Source: Candidatus Aenigmatarchaeota archaeon (GTDB taxonomy: Archaea; Aenigmatarchaeota; Aenigmatarchaeia; GW2011-AR5; JAGGXF01). From it: a DNA stretch of 64,000 nucleotides. The stretch is from the NCBI GenBank assembly GCA_021157845.1, contig JAGGVU010000002.1, forward strand, positions 31,376-95,375, read 5' to 3'. The notes beneath the pieces were generated by a model, which ran no database searches, was not told the origin of the DNA, and worked only from the letters and a program-made list of their open reading frames with translations. The translations under genes were made by a program, and so were the position numbers. Shown one piece after another: positions 22,010-53,485 of the stretch (its first letter is position 1; each line of letters begins with the position of its first letter).

Positions 22010-24271
22010 GTGATAATTTGTATGGTTTGTGAATATTCTTACGATCCAAACACGAGAAAGATGCGTGTTGATTGTTTGGGATGCATATATGGAGCCAGTA
22101 TAGAAGATTCGCCAGAATGCATGTCAAGAACCATTGAAAAGCTTATGGAAGTTGGCCGAACTACCGGAGTTATACTTGCTGAAACAAGAGAATATGAGTA
22201 TGATGAGAGAAATACTGCGCTTCTTTTGGAAATTGCGCAGGCAGTTATAAAAATAGTAAAAACAGAAAAGCTTACTGCTATTAAAAATCTTGGAATAACA
22301 GAATGTGAAAAATGTGTTCCGCGCAGATTCAGCAAAATGCAGGACATTGTTTCAACACTTAAGTCAGACCCCATAGACGCTTATAAAATGCTTTTGAGAG
22401 AGATAAGACACGTCAATATGAATATAAAAAAAACACAAAATCCTCTTTGCATAAAATGTTATAACCATTACCTTAATCGTGCACTTATCCCGATAAAAAA
22501 TATCATTGAACCTTTACGTTTAATACAGTTATCTGCTGATAAAATAAAAAAGTCCGGCGACAGATCGATATACCGGGAGATATTTCACCCAACAATACGG
22601 CCGAATTTTATGTTTACAAGGTTTATATCTTTGCCGCCTGCCAATGCAGAGCCGCTTGACAGGTATACAGTAGGGGATGGAAATAGCGTTCAGATAGTTA
22701 AAATCCCTGGAAAGGTAAGGTTGTTATATCATATATCTCCATCTGAATTTAATTTAACAGAAGACGAATATATGTTGCTTGACAGCGCAAGAAACTATTT
22801 GTCAGAGCATAAACCAAAGGAAGCAGAACTAACCGATCCAGAAAGAATCAGGGAGCGATTTTATAATATAAATTTTGATTTATTAAATGAGCTGGCAGAA
22901 AGATACGGTAAGACCATACCTGCAAAAAGGTTGTCCAAGCTTGCGTCTATATTAACACGATATACAGCTGGGTTTGGTGTGCTTGAGCTATTGCTACAGG
23001 ATGAGAAGATACAGGATATTTCTATTAATTCGCCGGTTTCACAAAGTCCGATATATATATTTCACTCAGATTTTGGAGAATGTGAAACTAATTTGGTAGT
23101 TAGCCCGAAAGATGCGGAATCATGGGCAACAAGATTTAGACTTATGTCAGGTCGGCCTTTAGACGAGGCAAACCCAGTCTTGGACACAGAACTGATAGTG
23201 CCTGGTGGCAGGGCAAGGGTGGCTGCTATTACGCGCTCGCTGTCGCCAGAAGGGTTGGGGTTTGCTTTGCGCCGTCACAGGGAAAAACCATGGACATTTC
23301 CATTATTTATAAAAAACAAAATGTTGAACCCGCTGGGTGCAGGATTAATATGGTTTATAATAGATGGAGCAAGAACATTCTTGGTCGCAGGAACGCGGTC
23401 TTCGGGCAAAACTTCATTTTTAGGTTCGATGATGCTGCAAATAATGCCAAGTACAAGGATAATAACAGTGGAAGATACGCTTGAACTTCCGGTAGTTGCA
23501 CTGAAAAAATTAGGTTATGATATAGAAAGGTTAAAAAGCAGGTCAGTTATTACGCAGGTTAAGACAGAGTTACCAGCTGAAGAAGCTCTAAGAACATCGT
23601 TACGACTGGGAGATTCTTCTCTTATAATAGGTGAAGTAAGGTCAAGAGAGGCATTGGCATTGTACGAAGCTATGAGAATAGGCGCCCTTGCAAATGTTGT
23701 TGCCGGAACAATACATGGTGATTCACCATATGGTGTTTTTGATAGGGTTGTGAATGACCTTGGAGTTCCTGCTACAAGTTTCAAAGCCACAGATATAATA
23801 ATAATAGCTAATAGGCTTAAAACACCAGATGGTCTTCATAGCTTTAGGCGCATAACAGAGATAACCGAGCTGAGAAAACATTGGACAGAAACACCAGAAA
23901 AAGGAGGGTTTGAGCCTCTGATGCAATATTCTGCAAAAGATGATGAACTAAAGCCTACACCGACATTGCTGACAGGTGAAAGCACTATTCTGAACAACAT
24001 CAGTCAGAATATAAGAGAATGGCGGGGAAATTGGGATGCAATATGGTCTAATATAAATTTAAGAGCAAAAATTCTAAATCTTATAGTTGAAAGTGCAAAA
24101 AAAACAAATGATGATTCTCTTTTAGAAGCTCCGTTTGTTATGCAGTCAAACAATATTTATCATTTGTTGTGTGACGAGGTAAGAAAGGAAGTCGGAAGTC
24201 TTGATTCTGATATGATTTATGATAAATACGTTGCTTGGATAAAAGAGCAGATTAGAAAAAAGGAATTATAA
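22010..24271 (+). CDS. type IV pilus/archaellum-family secretion ATPase (FlaI/PilB/VirB11 superfamily) with Cys-rich N-terminal extension
   Basis: Walker A GTRSSGKTSF, Walker B-like IIGEVRSREA and a His box TIHGDSPYG. 753 aa, with about 250 extra N-terminal residues containing CxxC..CxxC..C. Confidence 0.8.
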   Translation: MIICMVCEYSYDPNTRKMRVDCLGCIYGASIEDSPECMSRTIEKLMEVGRTTGVILAETREYEYDERNTALLLEIAQAVIKIVKTEKLTAIKNLGITECEKCVPRRFSKMQDIVSTLKSDPIDAYKMLLREIRHVNMNIKKTQNPLCIKCYNHYLNRALIPIKNIIEPLRLIQLSADKIKKSGDRSIYREIFHPTIRPNFMFTRFISLPPANAEPLDRYTVGDGNSVQIVKIPGKVRLLYHISPSEFNLTEDEYMLLDSARNYLSEHKPKEAELTDPERIRERFYNINFDLLNELAERYGKTIPAKRLSKLASILTRYTAGFGVLELLLQDEKIQDISINSPVSQSPIYIFHSDFGECETNLVVSPKDAESWATRFRLMSGRPLDEANPVLDTELIVPGGRARVAAITRSLSPEGLGFALRRHREKPWTFPLFIKNKMLNPLGAGLIWFIIDGARTFLVAGTRSSGKTSFLGSMMLQIMPSTRIITVEDTLELPVVALKKLGYDIERLKSRSVITQVKTELPAEEALRTSLRLGDSSLIIGEVRSREALALYEAMRIGALANVVAGTIHGDSPYGVFDRVVNDLGVPATSFKATDIIIIANRLKTPDGLHSFRRITEITELRKHWTETPEKGGFEPLMQYSAKDDELKPTPTLLTGESTILNNISQNIREWRGNWDAIWSNINLRAKILNLIVESAKKTNDDSLLEAPFVMQSNNIYHLLCDEVRKEVGSLDSDMIYDKYVAWIKEQIRKKEL

Positions 24272-24283
24272 GAGGCAGAAGAA

Positions 24284-26323
24284 ATGGGATGGTTTGACAA
24301 CACCTTCGATGATAAAAAGGATAAAAAAAATATAAACAAAAAAAAAGAGCCACCGAAGGAACTTCAGACGCCAGAAACAAGAGAGTATAAAATTTTCAAG
24401 GAAGAAGAATTTTTTTTTGCCAAACATACGCTCTATGAAAAAGCATGTGCTATTGCAGAGAAGATATTGAAAATCAGCCCAGATAAAAAAACAGGATATC
24501 AGTTGGATAGGGCAATAAAGTTTACACATTTAAAATGCACAAAAGAGGGCGTGACATCGTTAGCATCTTTATTTTTATTTTTTTGGACATTCTTAATATT
24601 TTTTCTGGTTATCACAAAGTATATAACTGGGGTCGGAATATCCCTTATACTTGGTGGACTTATTTTTATTATCATTTCACCATTTGCTTATTATTTGTAT
24701 AAATATCCGCTTCACCTGAAAAAAAAATATGAGATTCATATAGGCAGTGAAATAGTGATGCTTATTCTGTATATGGTCATATATATGAAGGATCATGCTA
24801 ACTTAGAGGGGGCATTGGACTTCTCAGCCAAAAATTTAAGAGGGCCCCTTTCTTATGATATCAGGAAACTTTTATGGGATATTGAAGTTGGTGTCTACAA
24901 AACACCGGAAGAGGCGTTAATAGAATATGCATCCAATTGGAGAGAAAATAAAGAGTTTGTAGAGTCTATACAAACAATAATTTCCAGCCTTGCACAAACA
25001 GAAGACCGGCGGATAATCGTTTTAGACCAAGCCATGAATATAATCCTGAACGGAACAAGGGAGCGCGTAAAGAGATATAGCTATAAATTAAAAATGCCAA
25101 TTATGGTTGTTAACGCACTCGGAATAACGTTGCCAATCATGGGATTGGTTATGTTTCCAGTTATTGCTATATTTCTTTCAGACATATTCAAGCCAATAAT
25201 GCTGTTTGTGGGGTATGATGTATTGTTGCCTATACTGCTGTTTTTTATAATAGTAAATATTCTTGAAACCAGGCCTGTTACATTCAGTAAAATAGATATA
25301 TCTGACAATCCTTCGGTTCCTGCAGAGGGCAAGTTTAATCTGAAGCTTAAGAATATAACAAAGGAAGTTCCAGCATGGCCATTTGCTATTTTTATTGCGT
25401 CTCTTTTCTTTTTAGGAGGGCTATTCCTTTTCACAAAAGAGGCAGAAGGGCTGATAGCTTCTGTTTTAATGATAGCAGGTATAAATTTTGGGATAATGGT
25501 GTATAACTATCTTTTATCTTTCCAGCTTATCAAAATCAGGAAAGAGACAAGAGAAATAGAAGGGCAGTTTGCAGAGGCCTTATTCCAACTGGGCAACAGG
25601 GTTTCGTCGGGCGCTCCTATCGAAATTGCTCTTGAGAGAAGTGTTGCTGATATGGAGAATCTGACAATAAAAAACCTTTTCAAATCTGCGCTCTCAAATA
25701 TGCAGAATCTTGGTCTTACATTTGAGGGCTCATTTTTTGACAGGAAATACGGTGCTATAAAGCAGTATCCTTCAAAGCTGATAAAATCTGTTATGAGGTC
25801 CGTCATAGACTCAAGTAAAAAGGGTGTTCAGCTTGCTGCCACATCAATGCTTAACATATCGCGATATTTAAGAGATATACATGAAACACAGGAAGAAATT
25901 GAGGAAGAAATGGGGGATATCATAAGTTCTTTGAAATTTCAGGCGTTCTTTTTATCACCACTGGTTAGCGGCGTTGTTGTAACAACAGCTACTATAATAA
26001 TCAGAATATTAAATCAGCTACACCAGACAGTTGGCGGAATGACAAATGTTCCTGGTGGCGGATTCGGGACAAGTTTACTTGGTGCATGGGGACAAATACC
26101 AATTAACCCGGGCGCTTTTCAGCTTATAGTTGGCCTTTATCTTGTTGAGACACTTTTGCTGCTTTCTATGTTTATCAGCGGGATAGGAACTGGTGAAGAT
26201 AAAATAGGTAAAAGAGATCTCACAGCAAGTATTTTATTAATAGGATTTATAGTATATATAATATCATTGGGAATAACTTTATTAGTATTCGGCCCAATGG
26301 TTGCGATAGGTGTTGCGGTATGA
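24284..26323 (+). CDS. polytopic membrane platform protein (FlaJ/TadC/PilC-like)
   Basis: 679 aa with more than 9 TM helices and two cytoplasmic helical domains. Sits immediately downstream of the ATPase. Confidence 0.6.
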   Translation: MGWFDNTFDDKKDKKNINKKKEPPKELQTPETREYKIFKEEEFFFAKHTLYEKACAIAEKILKISPDKKTGYQLDRAIKFTHLKCTKEGVTSLASLFLFFWTFLIFFLVITKYITGVGISLILGGLIFIIISPFAYYLYKYPLHLKKKYEIHIGSEIVMLILYMVIYMKDHANLEGALDFSAKNLRGPLSYDIRKLLWDIEVGVYKTPEEALIEYASNWRENKEFVESIQTIISSLAQTEDRRIIVLDQAMNIILNGTRERVKRYSYKLKMPIMVVNALGITLPIMGLVMFPVIAIFLSDIFKPIMLFVGYDVLLPILLFFIIVNILETRPVTFSKIDISDNPSVPAEGKFNLKLKNITKEVPAWPFAIFIASLFFLGGLFLFTKEAEGLIASVLMIAGINFGIMVYNYLLSFQLIKIRKETREIEGQFAEALFQLGNRVSSGAPIEIALERSVADMENLTIKNLFKSALSNMQNLGLTFEGSFFDRKYGAIKQYPSKLIKSVMRSVIDSSKKGVQLAATSMLNISRYLRDIHETQEEIEEEMGDIISSLKFQAFFLSPLVSGVVVTTATIIIRILNQLHQTVGGMTNVPGGGFGTSLLGAWGQIPINPGAFQLIVGLYLVETLLLLSMFISGIGTGEDKIGKRDLTASILLIGFIVYIISLGITLLVFGPMVAIGVAV

Positions 26324-26629: not shown

Positions 26630-27631
26630 ATGAGAAAAAAAGGTCAATTTAGCTTTACAAAAGCCATTATTATTTTAGTAGTAGTTATTGCACTGTCTCT
26701 CTTGATATTATCAAAAGTAAGGGTGTTTAGCAGAGATTCGCTGAATGGAAAAATAAACTTAAATTTTGTTGAACTTCTAAATACGCCAGATATTTCAGGT
26801 TCTGTTTCTATGTCAGGAACAGATGCACAGGGAAACAGCCAGTATGAATATAATTTTAATGTTGGAAATATGGAGCTAAAGTATCATGGTGCTGATGAGA
26901 CAACTGTTATAATTATTTTTACATTTAAAGGCCCAACTGACAAGACACTTCCAATTGGCGAAATAAAACTAATACCAAACGAAATGGCTGAAATCGATCC
27001 GCCTGCTGTAAAATTTCAGATGTCATTAAAATCAGGAATTTTTGCTCAGGCGCCCCCTTCGTTTAATGGAAAAATAAACAGCACTGCTGGTGGTGTTTAT
27101 GTTGGAAATTTTTCAATATATGCAAGAATAAAGGAATGTAAGGAAACGACAAGCAGCGTAACAGGTCAAACAAAAAAGGAATCAAAAATAGATTTTGACG
27201 TCTACGGAAGGACAAATGAAACATCAGATATAGAGCAATTGGGAACGATCAGTTTTTGCTGCAGCTATGACAGCTATGGCAGTTCTAATAATATTTGTAC
27301 AGACTGCAAAGGGAATGAAACAACAACACAAACACTGGCAAATTTACCGGGCAATGGTGAGGTAGCTATCTCATATACTGGCATATGCGGCGAAGACATC
27401 ATGGCCGACCAAGGCATACCTATTACATATAATTGGGTAGATGTAGGAATAGATGCAAAAGGTGGGTACAAAAAAAGTTTAGAGAATTATAAAACTGTAT
27501 ATATAAGGTTTTTTAAAAAAAGCAGCTGCGTGGAAAATAATGGCAATGATTTATCTCAGCTTATGGGCAAATGTGCTGCTGATAATTATTTGGGAATGCG
27601 GTCTTTTGAAGCAGATGTGAAAGAAATATAA
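26630..27631 (+). CDS. large Cys-rich pilin-like protein with class III signal peptide
   Basis: N-terminus MRKKGQFSFTKAIIILVVVIALSLLIL. 333 aa with 8 Cys in the C-terminal half. Confidence 0.6.
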   Translation: MRKKGQFSFTKAIIILVVVIALSLLILSKVRVFSRDSLNGKINLNFVELLNTPDISGSVSMSGTDAQGNSQYEYNFNVGNMELKYHGADETTVIIIFTFKGPTDKTLPIGEIKLIPNEMAEIDPPAVKFQMSLKSGIFAQAPPSFNGKINSTAGGVYVGNFSIYARIKECKETTSSVTGQTKKESKIDFDVYGRTNETSDIEQLGTISFCCSYDSYGSSNNICTDCKGNETTTQTLANLPGNGEVAISYTGICGEDIMADQGIPITYNWVDVGIDAKGGYKKSLENYKTVYIRFFKKSSCVENNGNDLSQLMGKCAADNYLGMRSFEADVKEI

Positions 27632-27651: not shown

Positions 27652-27786
27652 ATGAAAAAATTTTTATGGGCTATAATATTGCTTGTTGCTGCAGTTTTTA
27701 TACTAACGCTATTTATACTGAAAGCTAAAAATATGGGCATAAGCCTTATTGAATATATAGCTGGTCTGAATCTGTTTGGTGGTTAA
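27652..27786 (+). CDS. small hydrophobic protein (44 aa; not in ORF track)
   Basis: MKKFLWAIILLVAAVFILTLFIL.. fills an otherwise noncoding gap within the operon. Confidence 0.25.
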   Translation: MKKFLWAIILLVAAVFILTLFILKAKNMGISLIEYIAGLNLFGG

Positions 27787-27927
27787 ATGGAAATGCAGGG
27801 TTTTTTGGTAAGGCTATTGATAATGCTTGCGGTGCTTGCACTTATTTTTTTACTGCTTAAAGGGATTGTACCGGGTTTTGATGAGTCAGTCAAAAATTTA
27901 GTATGTTATGCTTTTGGAAATTGTTAA
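27787..27927 (+). CDS. small hydrophobic protein (46 aa; not in ORF track)
   Basis: MEMQGFLVRLLIMLAVLALIFLLL.. In the same frame as the next pilin-like gene, separated by a single TAA. Confidence 0.25.
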   Translation: MEMQGFLVRLLIMLAVLALIFLLLKGIVPGFDESVKNLVCYAFGNC

Positions 27928-27936
27928 GGTGATATT

Positions 27937-29130
27937 ATAAATAAAAAAGGAGATATTGAGATAGGGCTGGCACAGATTATACAAGTTATTATAGCATTAC
28001 TTGTTATTGCAACGCTTGTTTCAATTTTCAATACAGGAGCCGCTGCCACCCGTGAACAAACAGCCTTTGTCACTGCACAGGCACTCGCTGCACGCATAAA
28101 TGAGGCGTGTTTAGACACAAGTCAAGAGAGTTTAGGCACAAGTCAAGAGATGGAGATAAATATTCCGCAAGGAAAGATAATGCCATCTGTAAATTCACTT
28201 GATCCCGGAACAACTGTCGAAGGCGCTTATATAAAGATGCTTGCAGACCCAGAATTTGTTCTTTATTACGAGAGTTTTCCAATAGGCGATGATATTTCAT
28301 GGACATTATACACAGACCTTCCTTATACTGTCTATGCTTCGCTTAACGACAGCAGGCAAACTATACAAAATTTTAACGAGCTGGAAGCAGATTTTGTTTC
28401 CAATGTTAAAAAAGAGGTCAGTGACTACCTTTTAACAAAGGGGGTTGATGATGATTATCTCAAAGACGTTGAAAACATGAATGTCTTCCTGACAAATAAA
28501 TTAGTTGGAGGCGAACTGGGCAGCTGGCATCATACGAGCGTTGCAGACATTTTTAATATTTCTTTTACAGGGTTTAATCTTGCTAAAGCTTCATCAATCA
28601 AATATTTAGCATGTGGGGATAATGCACTTTGCCTTAAAACTCATAAAAATATCTATAGATTTCCGCTTACTAATTGCGACGGTATAGATTCAATAGAATT
28701 GCACACAGACAGCTTTTGGTCTTTTGGTCACCAGCGGGGGTTTGGGCTGGCTAGTCCATGTAAGTTAAAGGTGAAAATTTACAGGGCAAGTGGAAATAAT
28801 TGTTATTGCCACCAAAAACTATCTACCCCGATTTTTAATGTCTCGGAAAATGGAACTGCCACAACTATCGGAAAGAGAACAATGTGTTTTAATGAGCTTG
28901 GTGAAGAAAAGGCAGATAATAATTTTCAGTGTATAATAGTTGAGGCAGTTGGCGGAGCAAAAGACGGAACATTTTGTTATGTAAAAGACAGAAGCTGGAC
29001 GTACAACAATATAGCTGAAGATTTAGAACTGGTTAAAAGCAGTAATAACATTTATCCTGTTCTTAAACCACCGAGGCACTGGAGAGGTAAGCTTGGACTT
29101 AAAAATATATTCTGGCGGTGGCCCGACTGA
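27937..29130 (+). CDS. large Cys-rich pilin-like protein; pilin-type N-terminus lies upstream of the first ATG (28150), candidate non-canonical ATA start
   Basis: In-frame upstream sequence reads (I)NKKGDIEIGLAQIIQVIIALLVIATLVSIF, matching the class-III signal peptides of neighbouring genes. AGGTGA lies 4 nt before the ATA at 27937. The ORF track gives only 28150..29130. Confidence 0.45.
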   Translation: MNKKGDIEIGLAQIIQVIIALLVIATLVSIFNTGAAATREQTAFVTAQALAARINEACLDTSQESLGTSQEMEINIPQGKIMPSVNSLDPGTTVEGAYIKMLADPEFVLYYESFPIGDDISWTLYTDLPYTVYASLNDSRQTIQNFNELEADFVSNVKKEVSDYLLTKGVDDDYLKDVENMNVFLTNKLVGGELGSWHHTSVADIFNISFTGFNLAKASSIKYLACGDNALCLKTHKNIYRFPLTNCDGIDSIELHTDSFWSFGHQRGFGLASPCKLKVKIYRASGNNCYCHQKLSTPIFNVSENGTATTIGKRTMCFNELGEEKADNNFQCIIVEAVGGAKDGTFCYVKDRSWTYNNIAEDLELVKSSNNIYPVLKPPRHWRGKLGLKNIFWRWPD

Positions 29131-29543
29131 TGTCAAAGGGTGCAGGAGCTCTGATAAAAGAGGTTTTATGCATAGTTATAGGGCTTATTATTTTTGCACT
29201 TTTCGCAGTTCCTATAATGCAGGCTACAGGCAACACAATTGCTGAAGCAGGTATGAACCTAAACGCAAGGTATCATTGCGAGCAAATAGCCGGAATATTG
29301 AACATGTTATCGTCTTCTGATAATATGACAGTATTTTATAAAATTCCTTCAGAAAAATGTAATGTGAATATAAATGTTAATAATTCAAAAAGTGTGGAAG
29401 TTTTTATTGACCAGTCAAGCTATCAAAAATCTTTCATCGACAGCAGCATCGAAATTGTTCCTGCTAGTTTTTCCTGTAAAAATGGTGCTGCATCTTTGAA
29501 ATTTGAAAAAAAAGGAGACAAAATTTTAATAACAGGTGGATAA
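29130..29543 (+). CDS. pilin-like protein with class III signal peptide
   Basis: MSKGAGALIKEVLCIVIGLIIFALFAV. The ATG overlaps the upstream TGA. Confidence 0.55.
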   Translation: MSKGAGALIKEVLCIVIGLIIFALFAVPIMQATGNTIAEAGMNLNARYHCEQIAGILNMLSSSDNMTVFYKIPSEKCNVNINVNNSKSVEVFIDQSSYQKSFIDSSIEIVPASFSCKNGAASLKFEKKGDKILITGG

Positions 29544-31962: not shown

Positions 31963-32046
31963 ATGTTATATTCAATTTGCGTTGGCCCGCAAAGCCTAAA
32001 TTTTAAAACCGAAAACTTTATATATAATCGTTACAAAAGTAACAAT

Positions 32047-32595
32047 ATGGTCAAAAAAGTTTCAATATGGTTAACTTTGGAACCATTGTTATATGCCGAG
32101 CCAAAACATCTTGCTGAGATATCAAAAAAGCTCAAAAGACCGCACACGACTATAAGAAAACAACTTGCAGTATTTGAAAACATTGGACTATTAGAGAAAG
32201 AAAAAAAAGGAAGGCAAACACTTTACCAACTGAAAAAAATCCCTTTGTTTGTGGATTACTTAACAATAATTGAGAAGGAAAAGCTAATTGAAAGATGTAA
32301 AGAGGAGTTAGTTTTAAAAGAAATAATAGAGCAGTTACATTCCTTTAATAATCCTATTATTATTTTTGGTTCGGCTGTAGATTCAGTAAAAAAAGCAGGA
32401 GATGTGGATATTCTTGTTGTTGGAAAATTTAACAGAGAAAAAATTAAACTTCTTGAGAAAAAACTTAATTTGAAATTTCATATTATAAATGTAAAATCAT
32501 TAAAAGAAATAAGTGAAACATTAAAAAAAGAAATCATAAAAAAGCATTTGATTATCCAAAAAAGCGAGGAATGGATAAAATGGTTAGTAAGTTGA
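32047..32595 (+). CDS. minimal nucleotidyltransferase (MNT) with N-terminal wHTH, antitoxin-like
   Basis: NTase motif GSAVDSVKKAGDVDILVV. Internal ATG at 32047 (MVKKVSIW); the ORF track starts at 31963. Confidence 0.55.
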   Translation: MVKKVSIWLTLEPLLYAEPKHLAEISKKLKRPHTTIRKQLAVFENIGLLEKEKKGRQTLYQLKKIPLFVDYLTIIEKEKLIERCKEELVLKEIIEQLHSFNNPIIIFGSAVDSVKKAGDVDILVVGKFNREKIKLLEKKLNLKFHIINVKSLKEISETLKKEIIKKHLIIQKSEEWIKWLVS

Positions 32596-33047
32596 AATGG
32601 TGTTTCAGGAAGAGAGAAGTTAAACTTATCGAGCCTAACGAAAATCTATCAAATGAATATTTGAAAAGTGCTGAAGAAACCTTGCTTGTTTTGAGAGACA
32701 TTAAAGGAAAATCAAATATGTGGTTAGCAACAACAAAATACTATTCTGAATATTTTGCACTTTATGCTTTGTTAATGCGTATAGGCATTAAATCGGAGAT
32801 CCATGATTGCACTATAGAGATTGTGAAGTTTCTTGAAGAACAAAATGTTATTGAAATGGGGATTGCAAAAATACTTGAGAATGATAAAAGTTTAAGAATC
32901 GATAACCAATACTATTTGAAAAATAAGAAGGTATTTGTAGATTACAATAACTTAAGGGATTTGATTTTTAAAATCAAAGAAATAATAAACACAATAACCA
33001 ACGAAAAAATTGAGGAAATAAGAAGAAAAATCAGAGAAATAGTTTAG
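32571..33047 (+). CDS. HEPN-domain protein, toxin-like partner of MNT
   Basis: HEPN helical pattern (YYSEYFALYALLMRIGIKSEIHD). Overlaps the MNT gene by 25 nt. Confidence 0.5.
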   Translation: MDKMVSKLKWCFRKREVKLIEPNENLSNEYLKSAEETLLVLRDIKGKSNMWLATTKYYSEYFALYALLMRIGIKSEIHDCTIEIVKFLEEQNVIEMGIAKILENDKSLRIDNQYYLKNKKVFVDYNNLRDLIFKIKEIINTITNEKIEEIRRKIREIV

Positions 33048-33276: not shown

Positions 33277-35022
33277 ATGATTAAATTAAAAGAGGTTATA
33301 ATTCTATTTTCAGTATTTTTAACGATAATTCAATCTGTTTCTGCTATCTCAAATGTTCAACATTCTGTAGATGGAAATAAAGTTACCTTAACTTATCAAG
33401 GGATTCCTCCATTTTGGATAAATATAAGAGGAGATACAAACATCGGGCAAGCAGGAGGATATTTATGGGCAAAAACATACTCAAAATCATTTAGTTATGA
33501 TATGAGTTTTGCTATTAATCCTTCTAAGAAATTTTATTATGGCATTAAAGATACAAGTTGGAGTTCTCCAACTGTTTTTAATTTAGGTGAAGTTCAAAAA
33601 AATGGATTAATTATTATTAATAAAAATGCTGATGGTAAGAATTACGCTAAACAAATTGCTCAGAATAGGGGTTGGGGATTTATTGAGTTAGAATCTTCAG
33701 ATATTAACTATATTAAAAACACCGTAAAATCATTTTATAATGAAAATAACAACGAATTTCTATTAATAATTGGTGATTTTAATGAAATACCTCTTAAAGA
33801 CACTGGAACACAACAATTTGGTTCTCAAGTTTATATTACAGACCCTCAATTGTATGGGGACATAAATGGAGATGGTTATGTTGATTTAAGCATTGGTAGA
33901 ATTCCTTTCTCATCCAAAATTTTATTGGAAAAATATTTTGATAATCTCCAAATTTCAGGTGAGAATGTATATATTGAAAATTATCCTTTTGGTAGCAGCT
34001 ACGATAATCTCCCATACGATGGATCTACATCAGGAGAATACATTGCTTCATTTTGTTTAAAAAAAGAATTGCCTCAATTGCAACCATATCGATTTAGAAG
34101 CAAAAATCAATTGATTAATGATTATCGGAGTTCTTCAGTAGTGCTTTTGAATACTCATGGCTCTTGGAGTGGTTTTAGTGTTAAGACTGAAGAGGAATTT
34201 AGAAACAAACAAACGCATTCTTTGGGTATTAATGACTTATGTGGCACGCAACAAGAAGATTGTTTTACTAATAGACCCATTTTTCTGCATTTTTCCTGCT
34301 TGAATGCAAGAAAATTAGGTATTGATCTCATAAAAAGAGGAGCTTCTGCTTTCATTGGGAATTATAATACTGGAGGTTATACTCCTAAAGGATTTTTATC
34401 TGAACTAGCTACAGGAAAACCTGTTGGTACTGTTATGAAAAATCAAATAAATAGAAAATTAAGCCATAATTTAGCTCTTAAAATGATTGTTGAAAATAGA
34501 GGAGAAAGAGAGAATGTTAATATAATTAATGAAAATATTGAAATATTTGATGATTATGGCGCTATCATGTATGGAGACCCAACACTTACTGTTAATATTC
34601 AAAAAGGTTCGGAAAATGTTAATATCCTTGAAGATCATAACAACAAAGTTGTAACAATCAAGATTAATAAAAACCCGGAGTTCATTCTTGATCCAGAACA
34701 TGGTGAAGACTATTATGGGATTCTTTGTTATAATAGCGTAAATTTAGATTCTTTGAAACACATAGATAAATCTTCATGGGAACAAACGTTTAATTCTTCA
34801 CACATGGCTACATTTCTTATACCAATAAATGATAATTCAATACAAGAGATTACTTCAGTTAAGATTAAATTAGAAGATCAATATGAGACTATATATGATA
34901 ACTCTATAAACTATTATTTATTCAAAGGAATAGACAAACAATTTTTATATTTAGATCTAGGTTATGATTCTCCTTTTATACCTTCAAATAAAGATTTAGA
35001 AATTCAAATTTACTATAATTAA
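33277..35022 (+). CDS. secreted protein with Sec signal peptide; possible C25/caspase-fold cysteine peptidase
   Basis: Signal peptide MIKLKEVIILFSVFLTIIQSVSA. His-Gly (LLNTHGS) and a downstream Cys (HFSCLN) spaced like the gingipain catalytic dyad. 581 aa. Confidence 0.4.
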   Translation: MIKLKEVIILFSVFLTIIQSVSAISNVQHSVDGNKVTLTYQGIPPFWINIRGDTNIGQAGGYLWAKTYSKSFSYDMSFAINPSKKFYYGIKDTSWSSPTVFNLGEVQKNGLIIINKNADGKNYAKQIAQNRGWGFIELESSDINYIKNTVKSFYNENNNEFLLIIGDFNEIPLKDTGTQQFGSQVYITDPQLYGDINGDGYVDLSIGRIPFSSKILLEKYFDNLQISGENVYIENYPFGSSYDNLPYDGSTSGEYIASFCLKKELPQLQPYRFRSKNQLINDYRSSSVVLLNTHGSWSGFSVKTEEEFRNKQTHSLGINDLCGTQQEDCFTNRPIFLHFSCLNARKLGIDLIKRGASAFIGNYNTGGYTPKGFLSELATGKPVGTVMKNQINRKLSHNLALKMIVENRGERENVNIINENIEIFDDYGAIMYGDPTLTVNIQKGSENVNILEDHNNKVVTIKINKNPEFILDPEHGEDYYGILCYNSVNLDSLKHIDKSSWEQTFNSSHMATFLIPINDNSIQEITSVKIKLEDQYETIYDNSINYYLFKGIDKQFLYLDLGYDSPFIPSNKDLEIQIYYN

Positions 35023-49537: not shown

Positions 49538-52500
49538 TTAATTCTCTGTAGCACAAATTGGGCAGTAATAATGTTTTCCAGGTATATAGCCGTGTATAGG
49601 GCATATGCTAAATGTTGGTGTTATGGTAAAGTATGGAAGCCTGAAATTTTCTGCTATCTTTCTTATAAGATTTTTCGTAGCTTCTGGGGATGGCATGCTC
49701 TCGCCTATAAATCCATGCAAAACTGTCCCACCTGTATATTTACATTGTAGGTTATCCTGAAGTTTCAAAGCTTCAAAAATGTCATCCGTGTAGTCAACTG
49801 GCAGTTGTGTTGAATTTGTATAGTACGGTGCTGCACCTCTTCTATAATTTTCTTCGTTTGCAACTATTATGTCCGGATAATTTTTTTTGTCAAGCCGCGC
49901 AAGCCTATGAGACGCCCCTTCTGCTGGTGTTGCCTCGAGGTTATATATATTTCCTGTTTCCTGTTGATAGCTCTGGAGTTTATTTCTCATAAAGTCCAAA
50001 ACCTTCTCAGCAAATTTTCTGCCTTTTTCGTCTGCTATATTTACGCCCATAAAATTTAGTAGGGCTTCGTTCATACCAATTAGTCCAATCGTTGAGAAAT
50101 GGTTTTTCCAATATTTCCCTGTTTTTTGTTTTATACTTCTCAAATAAAATCTGGAATATGGATACAGCCCCTTTTCAGTGAAATTTTCAATAATTTTTCT
50201 TTTGATTTCAAGGCTTTTTTTTGCCAGGTCCATATTTTTTTCAAGTTTCTCAAAAAACTCTTCTTCTGTTTTTGACATGTACCCTATTTTTGGCATGTTT
50301 ATGGTTACCACGCCTATAGAACCTGTGAGCGGATTAGCACCAAACAGTCCGCCGCCCCTTTTTTTTAATTCTCTATTGTCTATTCTAAGCCGGCAGTTGT
50401 GCGTAAGAATACCAGTAGTTCCTACTGTAAACATTGGCTCCCCGTTCTCAACTTCAAAGCAATAAGCAGTATTGTTTTTTAATTGCTTAATAGACTTGAT
50501 CTTTATCCAAAGCTTGTTGTCATGTTTAAACCAGAAATCACCATAGTTATTTCTATTTAGTTGATAGACTAAAACGGAATAGTTCGGTTCTTCACCTAAT
50601 CTACCGTCTCTACTGTCCTCATATACAGATGTGGTTGTTCCTAAAGTAGCTGCAAGCATATTAAGTGTTTCTAACATTTTCTTGGATGATGTGTATATTC
50701 TGTTGCGATTTCCTCCATCTGTTGCATAGTGCCCTTCCAATACACCCTTTCTAAATTCCAAACTCATTCCAAATATTCTACTTTTATAATGCTTCTCTCT
50801 TTTTATTCCAGAAACAAAGTCTTTACAAAGTCCTACAGCAGCTTTTGAATGTATTCTAAGTGTAAAGAGTTTAGTGTCGTCATACTCCTTTGTTGTACAA
50901 TGCGCCCCAAAATATTTTTCGGCAATTTGTTTTAGTTTTTTTGCAACAGTCTTTTTTTCTCCGGCTCCTAAAGAAAACACAACTGTTGTTTCTCTATCTA
51001 ATGATCCATCACCCGCATAAGCACCTACAAAATATCCCAAGTCAGCATTTCCACCATTTCCTTCGTACACATTAAGAGAATAGGGAAGATACATGCCTTC
51101 TTCCAATTGCTCTCCTTTCAATTCTTCTACCACCGCGTCTGGCCCTCTCATTACAAAATTGAGATGTTCACTAGACATTTTTATTTTATGACCATTTTCG
51201 AGAGCAATTTCAATCATTTTTTGATTTGGGAATTTGTTAAACTTGCCTTTTACAAATTTTCCATCACTGTAAATTTCATATTTCTCAGTCTTAGAATTAC
51301 CTTCATAGATGTTTCTAATGCTTGAATATTCCAACCTCCTTCCTCTATTTGATTTTATCAATACCTTTTCTTCGCCATCTAGCGGACACATACTTCTTAC
51401 GTCATCTGGCTTCATGTCACTATTTATAAAATTAGCGAAATATGGAACTCCGTACTTTGCAGTCATTTCCCAAAGTGGTTTATAGTCTTCTTTATCCCAC
51501 TCAAAATTTTTCGTTATGTTATATGTTGGAATTGGGAATGTGAACACCCGGCCTTTTGCATCACCTTCTAGCATCATTTCAGCAAACGCCCTGTTTATCA
51601 TATTCATCTCTTTCTGAAAGTCAGAGTAGGATTCTTTCTGCGGCTTTCCACCAATTATTACTGGCTCGTTTTTCATGTAGCTTGGAACTTCCAAATCGAG
51701 CGTTATGTTTGTAAAAGGAGTGTTCCCTGTTATGAAGACTTTGCCATTTCTTCTTGCTATTACAGTCTCATTTTTTGTGTTTGGGCACCATATTATCCCG
51801 TTATAGTTTACTTTTGTTATTTTCTGTATATACGTTTCCTTGTGTTTGATAAGTCTAAGGACATAAATATCTTTACTGCCGATTGTTGGCTTTCTTTTCA
51901 AGACAGTAAATCCGTACCCAGCGTTAACTGCTATGATTTGCAGTGCATCTAAAATTTCCAAATTCGTCGTCGCAATTTTGCAATTTTCGAACCCATCTGC
52001 CTTAAGGTAAGTTTGAATAAATAACTTAGACTGCCGTTCGTTCATATTTAATAAAATATCAGGTACAAAACTGATATTATCTCTAGTTCCAAACCATTTG
52101 TGAATTTTTCTGGAACTTTTTGCGTCAAGCCTAAGTCTTGCGACTTTACCATCAAAAGCAGCAGACTCATATTCAGAGTATTTTAGTTTGAAATGTTTCA
52201 GAAGTTTGATTATTTCTTTATAGTTCTTTTTGTTTTTTTCTTTCGACTGGTAAATACTTATCCTGTAGCAGTGTCTATATTTTGTTGGTCTTTCTATTGT
52301 TCCTTCGCTTATAATCCATGCCATTAATTTTATTTGTTCATCACTGATTGTTGCCTCTTTGTTTGAATTTTTTCCAGCGATAGGAATAATAAAAGGTGAT
52401 TTTAATTTTATGACGTCTTCTATCGGTTCAAGTATATATGCGCTGGTTTGAAAATTTTTTCTAACAACCCTATGTTTTGGCGATATTAATTGATCTTGTA

Positions 52501-53485
52501 CATGATTTTTCAGATTATACATTATTCCCTTATAATGCTTTTTGAAAACTCTTCTGACACGCTGATTTTCTATTTTGCCTGTTTTTACATTAAATGTCTT
52601 TATTATACTCCCTCTTTTTATTTCGTCATATCTGGCCCAGCCTTCTGGTGTCAATATTTCCGTATCTTCTGATACACACTGAAACCCAACCCTTGTCGGC
52701 ACATTTATGTTAAATAGAAATTCCTGCATCGCCTGCTTAACCTGTTTGTAGTTTAGATTGTCATAGCGAATAAATGGCGCAAGAAGCGTATCAAAATTTG
52801 AAAAAGCCTGTGCACCCGCTGCCTCGCCCTGCAGTGTATAGAAAAAATTTATTATCTGGCCAAGTGCAACCCGCAGATGTTTTGCAGGTTTGGTTTCTAT
52901 TTTTCCGCTCACACCTTTGAAGCCTGATAAGAGAAGGTCCTGCAAATCCCATCCTACGCAGTATGCACCAAATATTCCCAAATCATGAATATGAAAATCG
53001 CCGCTATTATATGCCTGTCTGATTTCTGGTGGATATATTTTATTCAGCCAATAGTTAGAAATAATTTTTGATGAGATATGAAAATTTAAGCCCTGCAAGG
53101 AATAAGTCATATTGCTATTCTCACGCACGCGCCAGTCCTTTTCATCAAGATACTTATCAACAACACTGAGGTCGCCAACCATCCTTCTAAGTTCTCTCAG
53201 TTCTTTATGCTGTTGTCTGTATAATATGTATGCTTTGGCAGTTTTTGCGTGGCCGTTTTCTATTAAAACCTTTTCAACTATATCCTGTATTTCCTCAACT
53301 GTAGGTTCTCTGCTAATGCCATCATATTTTTTTTCTAATATTTCTACAACTTGGGCAGATAGTTTTTTAGATAACTCTTTATCTTTTCCACCAACTGCCT
53401 GTGCAGCTTTCCAAATGGCTTCTGTTATTTTATTCGGTTCAAAATCAACAATTCTTCCATCCCGCTTTTTGATTTTTTTTATCAT
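49538..53485 (-). CDS. nrdD: anaerobic ribonucleoside-triphosphate reductase NrdD (class III) interrupted by two inteins
   Basis: ATP-cone N-terminus, C-terminal ..TFSICPIHGY..CPIC glycyl-radical/Zn-ribbon region. Extein total is about 665 aa out of 1315. Confidence 0.85.
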   Translation of the reverse strand: MIKKIKKRDGRIVDFEPNKITEAIWKAAQAVGGKDKELSKKLSAQVVEILEKKYDGISREPTVEEIQDIVEKVLIENGHAKTAKAYILYRQQHKELRELRRMVGDLSVVDKYLDEKDWRVRENSNMTYSLQGLNFHISSKIISNYWLNKIYPPEIRQAYNSGDFHIHDLGIFGAYCVGWDLQDLLLSGFKGVSGKIETKPAKHLRVALGQIINFFYTLQGEAAGAQAFSNFDTLLAPFIRYDNLNYKQVKQAMQEFLFNINVPTRVGFQCVSEDTEILTPEGWARYDEIKRGSIIKTFNVKTGKIENQRVRRVFKKHYKGIMYNLKNHVQDQLISPKHRVVRKNFQTSAYILEPIEDVIKLKSPFIIPIAGKNSNKEATISDEQIKLMAWIISEGTIERPTKYRHCYRISIYQSKEKNKKNYKEIIKLLKHFKLKYSEYESAAFDGKVARLRLDAKSSRKIHKWFGTRDNISFVPDILLNMNERQSKLFIQTYLKADGFENCKIATTNLEILDALQIIAVNAGYGFTVLKRKPTIGSKDIYVLRLIKHKETYIQKITKVNYNGIIWCPNTKNETVIARRNGKVFITGNTPFTNITLDLEVPSYMKNEPVIIGGKPQKESYSDFQKEMNMINRAFAEMMLEGDAKGRVFTFPIPTYNITKNFEWDKEDYKPLWEMTAKYGVPYFANFINSDMKPDDVRSMCPLDGEEKVLIKSNRGRRLEYSSIRNIYEGNSKTEKYEIYSDGKFVKGKFNKFPNQKMIEIALENGHKIKMSSEHLNFVMRGPDAVVEELKGEQLEEGMYLPYSLNVYEGNGGNADLGYFVGAYAGDGSLDRETTVVFSLGAGEKKTVAKKLKQIAEKYFGAHCTTKEYDDTKLFTLRIHSKAAVGLCKDFVSGIKREKHYKSRIFGMSLEFRKGVLEGHYATDGGNRNRIYTSSKKMLETLNMLAATLGTTTSVYEDSRDGRLGEEPNYSVLVYQLNRNNYGDFWFKHDNKLWIKIKSIKQLKNNTAYCFEVENGEPMFTVGTTGILTHNCRLRIDNRELKKRGGGLFGANPLTGSIGVVTINMPKIGYMSKTEEEFFEKLEKNMDLAKKSLEIKRKIIENFTEKGLYPYSRFYLRSIKQKTGKYWKNHFSTIGLIGMNEALLNFMGVNIADEKGRKFAEKVLDFMRNKLQSYQQETGNIYNLEATPAEGASHRLARLDKKNYPDIIVANEENYRRGAAPYYTNSTQLPVDYTDDIFEALKLQDNLQCKYTGGTVLHGFIGESMPSPEATKNLIRKIAENFRLPYFTITPTFSICPIHGYIPGKHYYCPICATEN
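50396..51388 (-). mobile_element. intein 2 in NrdD (331 aa, LAGLIDADG homing endonuclease) inserted at SM/CRLR catalytic motif
   Basis: Begins CPLDGEEKVLI. Block B GHKIKMSSEHLNFV. LGYFVGAYAGDGS LAGLIDADG motif. Ends GILTHN followed by C. Confidence 0.7.
51722..52678 (-). mobile_element. intein 1 in NrdD (319 aa, LAGLIDADG homing endonuclease)
   Basis: Begins CVSEDTEILTPEGW (block A). Block B ..SPKHRVV. LAGLIDADG-like motifs LMAWIISEGT and YLKADGFE. Ends KVFITGN followed by Thr, i.e. penultimate Gly instead of His. Confidence 0.6.

What the first reader, a model, noticed from the sequence alone, without database searches (positions are those of the whole stretch)
27787..28200. Pilin-like gene whose signal-peptide-encoding region precedes the first ATG: candidate non-canonical ATA start, readthrough or very recent start-codon mutation
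The ORF-track gene 28150..29130 begins at an internal Met. Upstream, in the same frame and uninterrupted back to a TAA at 27925-27927, the sequence encodes GDIINKKGDIEIGLAQIIQVIIALLVIATLVSIFNTGAAATREQ.... This is a textbook pilin N-terminus (KKG, Glu shortly after, a 22-residue hydrophobic helix) highly similar to the neighbouring pilins, so it is unlikely to be open by chance. No in-frame ATG/GTG/TTG exists in this stretch. An ATA codon at 27937-27939 (giving M/I-NKKGD..., compare MNKGISLP of the paralog) sits 4 nt downstream of AGGTGA. The upstream 46-aa hydrophobic ORF (27787-27927) is in the same frame and is separated only by that single TAA. Possible explanations are initiation at ATA/ATT, stop-codon readthrough fusing the two ORFs, or a recent ATG-to-ATA mutation creating a pilin pseudogene.
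Basis: seen in the sequence. Interest (0 to 1): 0.6.

Follow-up and report, generated by a model that had tools for sequence, protein, structure and literature searches.

The report
Archaeal pilin gene starting at ATA
A large pilin-like gene in the pilus operon of an uncultured DPANN (Aenigmatarchaeota) archaeon has no ATG/GTG/TTG start yet is clearly still functional, so it most likely starts at an ATA codon behind a strong ribosome-binding site; this is a rare but known kind of weak start, not a new mechanism.

Summary
The frame is open from 27928 to 29130 and has no ATG, GTG or TTG before 28150. The 74 'leader' codons encode NKKG|DIEIG followed by a long hydrophobic helix. This N-terminus is typical of a family of about 157 proteins; every member that carries a source name is from Aenigmatarchaeota.

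It is neither a sequencing error nor a pseudogene. Four separate assemblies (98-99.9% identical) share TAAGGTGATATTATAAAT. Across them the gene shows 14 synonymous and 2 non-synonymous variable codons (pN/pS about 0.025). The leader alone has 4 synonymous changes, 0 non-synonymous, and one in-frame 21-nt indel.

More distant relatives place an ATG exactly where the window has ATA 27937, behind the same ribosome-binding-site geometry. One of them is a syntenic ortholog.

ATA 27937 lies 4 nt after AGGTGA, and ATG genes in this window typically have 4-5 nt. ATT 27934 lies only 1 nt after it.

Readthrough of the TAA is unlikely. The ortholog's upstream small ORF is in another frame, no RNA structure is present, and TAA is the commonest stop codon here.

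Best explanation: a fixed ATG-to-ATA change, with weak near-cognate initiation helped by a 7-nt Shine-Dalgarno sequence and coupling to the upstream ORF's stop. This is not proven experimentally. I rate it a new member of a known kind, of moderate to low interest.

The parts
22022..24271 (+). Context: type IV pilus/archaellum-type assembly ATPase (FlaI/TadA-like). It is the first gene of the operon.
   Evidence: Pfam T2SSE, E=2.5e-15. The NCBIfam FlaI and TadA models match below their cut-offs.
24284..26323 (+). Context: polytopic membrane platform protein (TadC/FlaJ-like).
   Evidence: Pfam T2SSF, E=4.3e-8, two stretches.
27787..27927 (+). Upstream 46-aa hydrophobic small ORF. Its TAA stop (27925-27927) overlaps the ribosome-binding site of the pilin-like gene.
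   Evidence: ORF list. It shows 3 synonymous and 0 non-synonymous differences against L001. A similar small ORF (…KIMPSF…) precedes the ortholog in L013, but in a different frame.
27927..27933 (+). Shine-Dalgarno sequence AGGTGAT, with 7 nt complementary to the archaeal 16S 3' end. It is the longest in this operon.
   Evidence: Sequence. Other starts in the window are compared. Five of the 10 other AGGTGAT sites in the window precede ATG starts.
27937..27939 (+). ATA, the most likely initiation codon. It would be read by initiator Met-tRNA as a near-cognate codon.
   Evidence: It lies 4 nt after GGTGA, and the mode for ATG genes here is 4-5 nt. It lines up with the ATG of L003 (GGT GAT TGA ATG GGC AAG GGA GAC) and of L013 (cggtgtaaat ATG AAA GGA). 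It is identical in 4 assemblies.
27934..27936 (+). ATT, the second-choice near-cognate start.
   Evidence: It lies only 1 nt after GGTGA, which is outside the spacing seen for any ATG gene of the window.
27937..27951 (+). Class III (prepilin-type) signal peptide, (M/I)-N-K-K-G, with predicted cleavage after Gly.
   Evidence: About half of the family members carry the motif [KR][KR]G-x-[ILV]-[ED] at the same place. The same M-x-K-G pattern is found in 7 neighbouring genes.
27946..28113 (+). Long N-terminal alpha-helix (model residues 4-59): a hydrophobic half followed by the conserved QxAF…L..AI.EAC half.
   Evidence: AlphaFold2 model, pLDDT 81.5, pTM 0.82. Alignments.
27937..29130 (+). Full coding sequence proposed: 397 codons plus the TGA stop.
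   Evidence: Translation. Across 4 assemblies there are 14 synonymous and 2 non-synonymous variable codons, with pN/pS about 0.025. phmmer finds 157 relatives whose N-termini match residues 5-20 of the open frame.
28109..28150 (+). In-frame 21-nt tandem duplication (GTTTAGACACAAGTCAAGAGA / GTTTAGGCACAAGTCAAGAGA). It is present only in the window strain and adds 7 residues after the helix.
   Evidence: Alignments with L001 and L002 and protein alignment.
28150..28152 (+). Internal ATG that gene callers take as the start, giving the truncated 326-aa protein P0001.
29130..29543 (+). Next pilin-like gene (MSKG|AGALIKE…). Its ATG overlaps the TGA stop of the gene in question (TGATG).

Best explanation
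The gene at 27937-29130 is a functional member of an Aenigmatarchaeota (DPANN archaea) family of large pilin-like proteins, and it sits in a type IV pilus operon. In this lineage the ancestral ATG start has become ATA.

**Proposed mechanism (inferred).** Ribosomes are held by the 7-nt Shine-Dalgarno sequence AGGUGAU (27927-27933). Many of them have just terminated at the UAA of the upstream 46-aa ORF, which overlaps that sequence. Initiator Met-tRNA then pairs with the near-cognate AUA 4 nt downstream.

**Expected product (inferred).** The precursor would be M-N-K-K-G|D-I-E-…. A prepilin peptidase is expected to cut after Gly, so the mature protein is the same whichever nearby near-cognate codon is used. 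Initiation at AUA should be weak, which would suit a bulky minor or tip pilin needed in few copies.

**What is shown.** The leader is coding, conserved and under purifying selection. The ATA is fixed in the population. The geometry matches canonical starts here and in relatives.

**What is inferred.** That AUA is the initiating codon, that coupling helps, that output is low, and that the signal peptide is cleaved.
For: 1. **The leader is real coding sequence.** It aligns with the N-termini of relatives, in both the TM helix and the QTAF…L.A..N..CL motif. AlphaFold2 places residues 4-59 in one long helix.

2. **Four assemblies share the start region.** The window, L001 (ENA ERZ2433807), L002 (JGI Ga0164318) and L012 (JGI Ga0164310) differ by 0.1-2% but all read TAAGGTGATATTATAAATAAAAAAGGAGA.

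3. **The gene is under purifying selection.** There are 14 synonymous and 2 non-synonymous variable codons. Window vs L001 gives pS 0.044 and pN 0.0011. In the leader, 4 changes fall on 47.7 synonymous sites and none on 144.3 non-synonymous sites (about 0.004 by chance, my calculation), plus one in-frame 21-nt indel.

4. **Spacing fits.** About 25 ATG genes of the window have GGTGA-type sites 4-5 nt before the start, and ATA 27937 has 4. The Pyrococcus abyssi aEF1A model mRNA GGAGGUGAUUUAAAUG has the same geometry (PMC6237735).

5. **Relatives have ATG at that position.** L003 reads GGT GAT TGA ATG GGC AAG GGA GAC (MGKG|D). The syntenic ortholog L013 reads cggtgtaaat ATG AAA GGA (MKG|I…).

6. 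**No other route into the frame exists.** Both other frames hit stops at 27930-27944 (read). RNA folding around the site is no more stable than shuffled sequence (z = -0.01).

7. **There is precedent.** AUA, AUU, AUC and CUG start at 1-2% of AUG in E. coli (bioRxiv 10.1101/063800). AUA starts of infC, ccpN and citZ in S. aureus have extended Shine-Dalgarno sequences, and reporters for ccpN and citZ give 10-30% of AUG (PMC13009471). About 30% of putative alternative start sites in Haloferax ribosome profiling are near-cognate (PMC7261190). Termination-reinitiation coupling that depends on a Shine-Dalgarno sequence has been reported in archaea (PMC7531240).
Against: - There is no experimental evidence for initiation at AUA in this organism, and I found none validated for any archaeon. 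The archaeal initiation review mentions only AUG, GUG and UUG, and aIF1 discriminates against non-canonical starts.
- ATA is the commonest Ile codon here (5.8% of codons). An ATA at the right distance is therefore not surprising in itself, and the case rests on elimination.
- The ATA is conserved only within one population of at least 98% identity. All other species examined use ATG, GTG or TTG.
- Other near-cognates (ATT 27934, ATT 27955, ATA 27961, CTG 27967) cannot be strictly excluded. Some family members lack the KG motif and start right at the helix.
- No other gene in the 64-kb window shows the same thing.
Confidence: 0.68

Rival explanations
1. Initiation is at a different near-cognate codon of the same frame: ATT 27934 (M-I-N-K-K-G…), or downstream of KKG at ATT 27955, ATA 27961 or CTG 27967. 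The downstream choices would give an uncleaved signal-anchor protein like the family members that lack KG.
For: - Family members such as P0002/L007 (MSD…), L005 (MEAIEE…) and L004 (MVEE…) start right at the helix without KG.
- AAGGAG at 27946-27951 lies 8 nt before ATA 27961, the spacing seen after GGAG-type sites here.
- The second ATG of the L013 ortholog lines up with ATA 27961.
Against: - ATT 27934 is only 1 nt from GGTGA.
- The conserved [ILV]-[ED] residues (I 27955, E 27958) and the KKG lie upstream of 27961.
- The GGAG is produced simply by coding K-G-D.
- The much stronger 7-nt site points to 27937.
- In L013 the upstream ATG, not the second one, has the ribosome-binding site.
Confidence: 0.12
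2. The gene is dead or dying. Loss of the ATG abolished translation of the full-length protein, and the open frame and signal peptide are relics.
For: - No canonical start exists.
- Gene callers only find the 326-aa remnant.
- DPANN genomes are AT-biased and prone to drift (my own knowledge), and G-to-A is the expected direction of mutation.
Against: - The ATA is shared by four diverged assemblies, yet changes since their split are 14 synonymous to 2 non-synonymous (pN/pS about 0.025). That is stronger constraint than in neighbouring pilin genes, for example 6 synonymous to 8 non-synonymous in 26630-27631.
- The only indel is in frame.
- Under neutrality about 75% of changes should be non-synonymous.
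Confidence: 0.06
3. Readthrough of the TAA at 27925-27927, or another recoding event, fuses the 46-aa ORF to the pilin-like frame, so translation starts at ATG 27787.
For: The two ORFs are in the same frame and separated by one stop codon. In L003 the upstream ORF is also in frame.
Against: - In the syntenic ortholog L013 the upstream small ORF is in a different frame. In the P0002 contig the called coordinates of the small ORF and the gene also put them in different frames.
- There is no stimulatory RNA structure (z = -0.01).
- TAA is the commonest genuine stop codon here (25 of 51).
- A fusion would put a transmembrane helix in front of the KKG cleavage site, which does not fit prepilin topology (inference).
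- Being in frame has a 1-in-3 chance.
Confidence: 0.04
4. Only the ATG at 28150 is used. This would give a 326-aa protein with no signal peptide or membrane helix.
For: It is the first canonical start and the one chosen by gene callers.
Against: - No ribosome-binding site precedes 28150; the upstream sequence is …AAGTCAAGAG ATG.
- The product would lack the helix and the conserved QxAF…C motif present in nearly all relatives, and would be a cysteine-rich extracellular-type domain left in the cytoplasm.
- The leader shows only synonymous changes.
Confidence: 0.05

Closest known systems
Bacterial genes with near-cognate AUU/AUA start codons (E. coli infC and pcnB, AUU; S. aureus infC, ccpN and citZ, AUA; cvfC1, AUU)
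   Same: A functional gene lacks AUG/GUG/UUG. The near-cognate codon lies at the proper distance behind an unusually long Shine-Dalgarno sequence. The expected consequence is reduced output: 1-2% of AUG in E. coli and 10-30% in S. aureus.
   Different: This case is archaeal, where initiation uses aIF1, aIF1A and aIF2 rather than IF3. The ATA is conserved only within one population and not across species, so it looks like a tolerated or recently adopted change rather than an old regulatory device. Nothing has been tested experimentally.
Archaeal type IV pilins and class III signal peptide proteins (substrates of PibD/FlaK/EppA)
   Same: It has a short basic leader ending in K-G, followed immediately by a hydrophobic helix (model helix, residues 4-59). 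It lies in an operon with a FlaI/TadA-type ATPase, a TadC/FlaJ-type platform and about eight other M-x-K-G proteins.
Translational coupling by termination-reinitiation in archaea (Huber et al. 2019, as summarised in PMC7531240)
   Same: The upstream stop codon overlaps the ribosome-binding site of the next cistron, 9 nt before its start. The same tight junctions occur in L003 (TGA ATG) and L013 (TAA at ATG).
   Different: The described cases reinitiate at canonical start codons. Reinitiation at AUA has not been described as far as I found.
Start-codon turnover in the same family (archaeon GW2011_AR5, L009/P0161)
   Same: At the position of the L003 ATG, L009 has ATC. This is a second, independent loss of the ancestral start in the family.
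   Different: In L009 an in-frame ATG 25 codons upstream, with its own GTGAT site, takes over and gives a long basic leader. In the window a TAA three codons upstream rules that out.

Membership tests
Archaeal type IV pilin-like protein (class III signal peptide) | Short positively charged leader ending in [KR]-G/A, directly followed by a hydrophobic stretch of about 20 residues | tested here: met
   The N-terminus reads (I/M)NKKG|DIEIGLAQIIQVIIALLVIATLVSIF. The same motif is present in about half of 37 relatives.
Archaeal type IV pilin-like protein (class III signal peptide) | Long N-terminal alpha-helix carrying a globular head | tested here: met
   The AlphaFold2 model has a helix at residues 4-59 followed by a beta-rich domain, with pLDDT 81.5.
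Archaeal type IV pilin-like protein (class III signal peptide) | Encoded next to a type IV filament ATPase and platform protein | tested here: met
   T2SSE at 22022-24271 and T2SSF at 24284-26323. The gene order is the same in L013.
Archaeal type IV pilin-like protein (class III signal peptide) | Head domain related in sequence or fold to known pilins | tested here: not met
Archaeal type IV pilin-like protein (class III signal peptide) | Cleavage by a prepilin peptidase and incorporation into a filament | not testable with these tools
   No peptidase gene was seen among the 40 window proteins scanned, but the window is only 64 kb.
Gene with a near-cognate (non-AUG/GUG/UUG) start codon | Conserved, selected coding sequence extends upstream of every canonical start codon | tested here: met
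Gene with a near-cognate (non-AUG/GUG/UUG) start codon | A near-cognate codon at the normal distance from a strong ribosome-binding site | tested here: met
   AGGTGAT, then 3 nt, then ATA. This is the same geometry as ATG genes here and in L003.
Gene with a near-cognate (non-AUG/GUG/UUG) start codon | The non-canonical codon is conserved among relatives | tested here: inconclusive
   It is identical in 4 assemblies of at least 98% identity. It is ATG, GTG or TTG in all other species found.
Gene with a near-cognate (non-AUG/GUG/UUG) start codon | Direct evidence of initiation (ribosome profiling, toeprint, reporter, N-terminal peptide) | not testable with these tools
   The organism is uncultured and no expression data are available here.
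Programmed stop-codon readthrough | In-frame arrangement conserved in relatives, with a stimulatory context or structure | tested here: not met
   The upstream ORF of L013 is in another frame. The fold z-score is -0.01. TAA is the main stop codon.
Pseudogene | Relaxed constraint: non-synonymous changes, frameshifts or stops accumulate | tested here: not met
   There are 14 synonymous and 2 non-synonymous variable codons, and the only indel is in frame.
Programmed ribosomal frameshift or transcriptional slippage at the AAAAAAG run (27943-27949) | An ORF with a start codon in another frame leading into the slippery site | tested here: not met
   Both other frames are closed just upstream: GTG ATA TTA TAA ends at 27940, and TGA 27930 and TAA 27942 close the other (read).

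The most novel reading that the evidence does not exclude
AUA is a genuine start codon in this DPANN archaeon, and it works only through termination-reinitiation. Ribosomes finishing the 46-aa membrane micro-ORF stay on the overlapping 7-nt Shine-Dalgarno sequence and restart at AUA. The bulky pilin-like protein would then be made in small, fixed proportion to the micro-protein. I found no supported case of an AUA-initiated gene in Archaea, nor of reinitiation at a non-AUG codon, so this would be the first I know of.
Probability: 0.25. Interest if true: 0.55.

Novelty: new member of a known kind. Interest (0 to 1): 0.35.

Why it matters
**Annotation.** Gene callers cut 71 codons off this gene, including the signal peptide and the membrane helix. 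Public databases therefore hold a 326-aa fragment (P0001) that looks cytoplasmic. Several other family members also look mis-started: P0156 and P0003 on checked DNA, and perhaps P0009, judged from its protein sequence only. Pilus repertoires of DPANN archaea are probably under-called for this reason.

**Biology.** If AUA does initiate here, it gives a natural archaeal test case for how far the aIF1/aIF2 machinery tolerates a near-cognate codon when a long Shine-Dalgarno sequence and translational coupling hold the ribosome in place. It would also show a simple way to keep a minor pilin at low dosage.

**Limits.** This is not a new principle. The same thing is established in bacteria.

Tried and rejected
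- **Sequencing error or private mutation: rejected.** Three further assemblies carry the same sequence.
- **Pseudogene: rejected** by the synonymous/non-synonymous counts.
- **Readthrough: disfavoured**.
- **Frameshift or slippage at AAAAAAG: rejected.** Both other frames are closed just upstream.
- **Other ATA/ATT starts in the genome.** I scanned all long ORFs of the window and of 15 fetched loci for long start-less leaders, and all ribosome-binding-site-like motifs followed by near-cognates. Only this gene stands out.
- **tRNA and Rfam scans of the window** found nothing, so the initiator tRNA could not be examined.
- **DNA for the P0002 contig** was unavailable.
- **Orthologs of intermediate distance** were not found. 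The metagenome scan returned only one more near-identical contig, and the closest other species is 36% identical.
- **Fold searches** to name the head domain gave nothing significant. The AlphaFold database library was not available.
- **Bacterial-type promoter and terminator scan** was uninformative for an archaeon.
- **Literature.** One paper search failed on syntax. Searches found no described AUA start in Archaea.
Full report
**1. The observation**

The sequence is as described.
- TAA lies at 27925-27927.
- The frame is open from 27928 to the TGA at 29128-29130.
- No in-frame ATG, GTG or TTG occurs before ATG 28150.
- The 74 leader codons read GDIINKKGDIEIGLAQIIQVIIALLVIATLVSIFNTGAAATREQTAFVTAQALAARINEACL….
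- AGGTGAT is at 27927-27933, ATT at 27934 and ATA at 27937.
- The 46-aa ORF at 27787-27927 is in the same frame.

Among about 50 long stop-to-stop ORFs of the window, no plausible gene has more than about 25 codons before its first canonical start. This one has 74.

**2. The setting**

The window is archaeal chromosome. It encodes MCM, GatD/GatE, the termination factor FttA, an archaeal CCA-adding enzyme, FtsZ, a proteasome subunit and diphthamide synthase. G+C is 35%.

The gene lies in a type IV filament operon. A FlaI/TadA-type ATPase (22022-24271) and a TadC/FlaJ-type platform (24284-26323) are followed by about a dozen small to medium genes. Eight of these begin with M-x(1-15)-[KR]-G and a hydrophobic stretch.

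Every relative of the gene that carries an organism name comes from Candidatus Aenigmatarchaeota, or from an unclassified 'archaeon' MAG such as GW2011_AR5.

**3. The leader is coding and family-typical**

- An exhaustive phmmer search found 157 representatives with E ≤ 1e-3. Most alignments begin at residues 5-20 of the open frame and at residues 3-17 of the target, so the relatives' N-termini match the part that lies before the first ATG.
- Their sequences show M-x(0-6)-[KR][KR]-G-x-[ILV]-[ED], then a hydrophobic helix, then QxAFxNxExLxxAIxExC. Examples are P0024 MNSKRNKKGSIELKLQLVLQVIVVL, P0089 MKRKGDLG and P0109 MLKRKGDTAV.
- An AlphaFold2 model built on 30 family sequences (pLDDT 81.5, pTM 0.82) puts residues 4-59 in a single helix followed by a beta-rich domain. 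That is the pilin layout.

**4. Not an error and not a pseudogene**

Three other assemblies carry the gene: L001 (ENA ERZ2433807), L002 (JGI Ga0164318) and L012 (JGI Ga0164310). They are 98.0-98.3% identical to the window and 99.4-99.9% identical to each other. All read TAAGGTGATATTATAAATAAAAAAGGAGA.

| Measure | Result |
|---|---|
| Variable codons across the four | 16: 14 synonymous, 2 non-synonymous |
| Window vs L001, whole gene | pS 0.044, pN 0.0011 |
| Leader, synonymous sites (S = 47.7) | 4 changes |
| Leader, non-synonymous sites (N = 144.3) | 0 changes |

- The chance that all four leader changes fall on synonymous sites is about 0.004 (my calculation).
- The single indel is an in-frame 21-nt tandem duplication in the window strain (28109-28150).
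- Neighbouring pilin genes are less constrained; for example 26630-27631 shows 6 synonymous and 8 non-synonymous differences.

The ATA is shared by all four assemblies, so it predates their split. The gene, leader included, has been kept by selection since then.

**5. Where translation starts**

In the window's ATG genes, GGTGA-type ribosome-binding sites end 4-5 nt before the start codon (range 2-8). Examples are acggtgaacaaaATG, ggggtgaaaaaATG, gaggtgataaatATG and caggtggataaATG. The Pyrococcus abyssi model mRNA GGAGGUGAUUUAAAUG has the same geometry (PMC6237735).
- ATA 27937 lies 4 nt after GGTGA.
- ATT 27934 lies 1 nt after it.

Relatives settle the position.
- L003 reads …GGT GAT TGA ATG GGC AAG GGA GAC… (MGKG|D). 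It has the same site, the same spacing, and an upstream stop at the same junction.
- The syntenic ortholog has the same gene order (P0003, 36% identity; L013-L015). It reads cggtgtaaat ATG AAA GGA ATA CGA GAA ATG GGT…, that is MKG|IREMGPKLILEII. Both of its ATGs line up with ATA codons of the window, 27937 and 27961.

The lineage has therefore replaced the start ATG by ATA.

Downstream near-cognates (ATT 27955, ATA 27961, CTG 27967) would drop the conserved KKG and the [ILV]-[ED] residues, and they lack a comparable ribosome-binding site.

**6. Other routes into the frame**

- **Readthrough of TAA is unlikely.** In L013 the homologous small ORF is in another frame. In the P0002 contig the called coordinates of the small ORF and the gene also put them in different frames. 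The local RNA fold is no more stable than shuffled sequence (z = -0.01). TAA is the commonest stop codon (25 of 51).
- **Frameshifting or slippage at AAAAAAG is ruled out.** It would need an ORF in another frame, and both other frames are closed at 27930-27944.
- **ATA is not reassigned.** It is the most used Ile codon (927 of 15,909 codons).

**7. Mechanism proposed**

The ribosome-binding site AGGUGAU has 7 nt of complementarity, the longest in this operon. It overlaps the UAA of the upstream micro-ORF. Terminating ribosomes, or their small subunits, are thus delivered to a site that places AUA in the P site. Initiator Met-tRNA pairs with a mismatch at the third position.

Precedents:
- AUA, AUU, AUC and CUG give 1-2% of AUG in E. 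coli (bioRxiv 10.1101/063800).
- AUA starts of infC, ccpN and citZ in S. aureus have extended Shine-Dalgarno sequences, and reporters for ccpN and citZ give 10-30% of AUG (PMC13009471).
- About 30% of putative alternative start sites in Haloferax ribosome profiling are near-cognate, though these are unvalidated (PMC7261190).

The leader peptide is expected to be removed after Gly. The mature protein therefore does not depend on which nearby codon starts translation, which may be why the change was tolerated. The likely effect is low output, which would suit a 397-aa minor or tip pilin. All of this step is inference.

**8. Comparison and novelty**

The case works like the bacterial infC/ccpN class of weak start codons and shares its sequence features. 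It differs in three ways: it is archaeal, it is conserved only within one population, and it is untested.

I found no validated AUA start in Archaea in the literature available here. The archaeal initiation review names only AUG, GUG and UUG.

A parallel case of start-codon turnover occurs in the same family. GW2011_AR5 (L009) has ATC at the ancestral start position and uses an ATG 25 codons upstream with its own GTGAT site.

I rate this a new member of a known kind. The annotation consequence is concrete: public protein P0001 is a truncated call.

**9. Confidence**

| Claim | Confidence |
|---|---|
| The gene is functional and translated from upstream of KKG | about 0.85 |
| Initiation at ATA 27937 specifically | about 0.68 |
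| Another near-cognate in the same frame | 0.12 |
| Pseudogene | 0.06 |
| Internal ATG only | 0.05 |
| Readthrough | 0.04 |

Noticed in passing
window 27937-29130; relatives P0002-P0171; loci L003-L015: The gene belongs to an uncharacterised family that may be specific to Aenigmatarchaeota. It has 157 representatives of 400-900 aa. Conserved features are GDPxYxLYYExFPPGEA, KYxxCGxNxLCLKT, DFYLASPC, about ten invariant or near-invariant cysteines, and a WxWP motif at or within a few residues of the C-terminus. It has no Pfam or NCBIfam family, and the confident AlphaFold2 model has no PDB neighbour.
   Followed up: partly
L009 5806-5900 and L008 3044-3140: In archaeon GW2011_AR5 the family member has ATC where L003 has its start ATG (…AAG ATC GGC AAG GGT GAC…). 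It appears to use an ATG 25 codons upstream with its own GTGAT site, giving a 29-residue basic leader before the cleavage site. This is a second, independent loss of the ancestral start in the family.
   Followed up: partly
L013 7320-7340; L005 5938-6000: Database proteins of the family are often mis-started. P0003 is called from the second ATG, although an ATG with a ribosome-binding site lies 6 codons upstream (MKG|IREMG…). P0156 (L005) is called inside the helix, although a TTG with a GGTGGT site gives MEAIEELIF….
   Followed up: partly
window 27652-27786 and 27787-27927: Two adjacent small hydrophobic ORFs (44 and 46 aa) show mostly or only synonymous differences between strains. They have counterparts in the same place in L013 and, by size, in the P0002 contig. 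They look like conserved micro-proteins of the pilus operon with unknown role.
   Followed up: partly
window 28109-28150: A 21-nt tandem duplication with one mismatch is present only in the window strain. It is in frame and adds DTSQESL after the N-terminal helix.
   Followed up: yes
window 49538-53485 (- strand): The anaerobic ribonucleotide reductase NrdD (1315 aa) is interrupted by an intein with a LAGLIDADG-type homing endonuclease domain (Pfam Intein_splicing and LAGLIDADG_3).
   Followed up: no
window 33277-35022: A 581-aa secreted protein with a weak match to peptidase family C25 (gingipain-like) lies about 1.4 kb beyond the last pilin-like gene of the pilus operon.
   Followed up: no
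window 31963-33047: Two small genes lie directly after the operon. Both look from their sequences like a nucleotidyltransferase/HEPN-type pair, but they were not scanned against any library.
   Followed up: no
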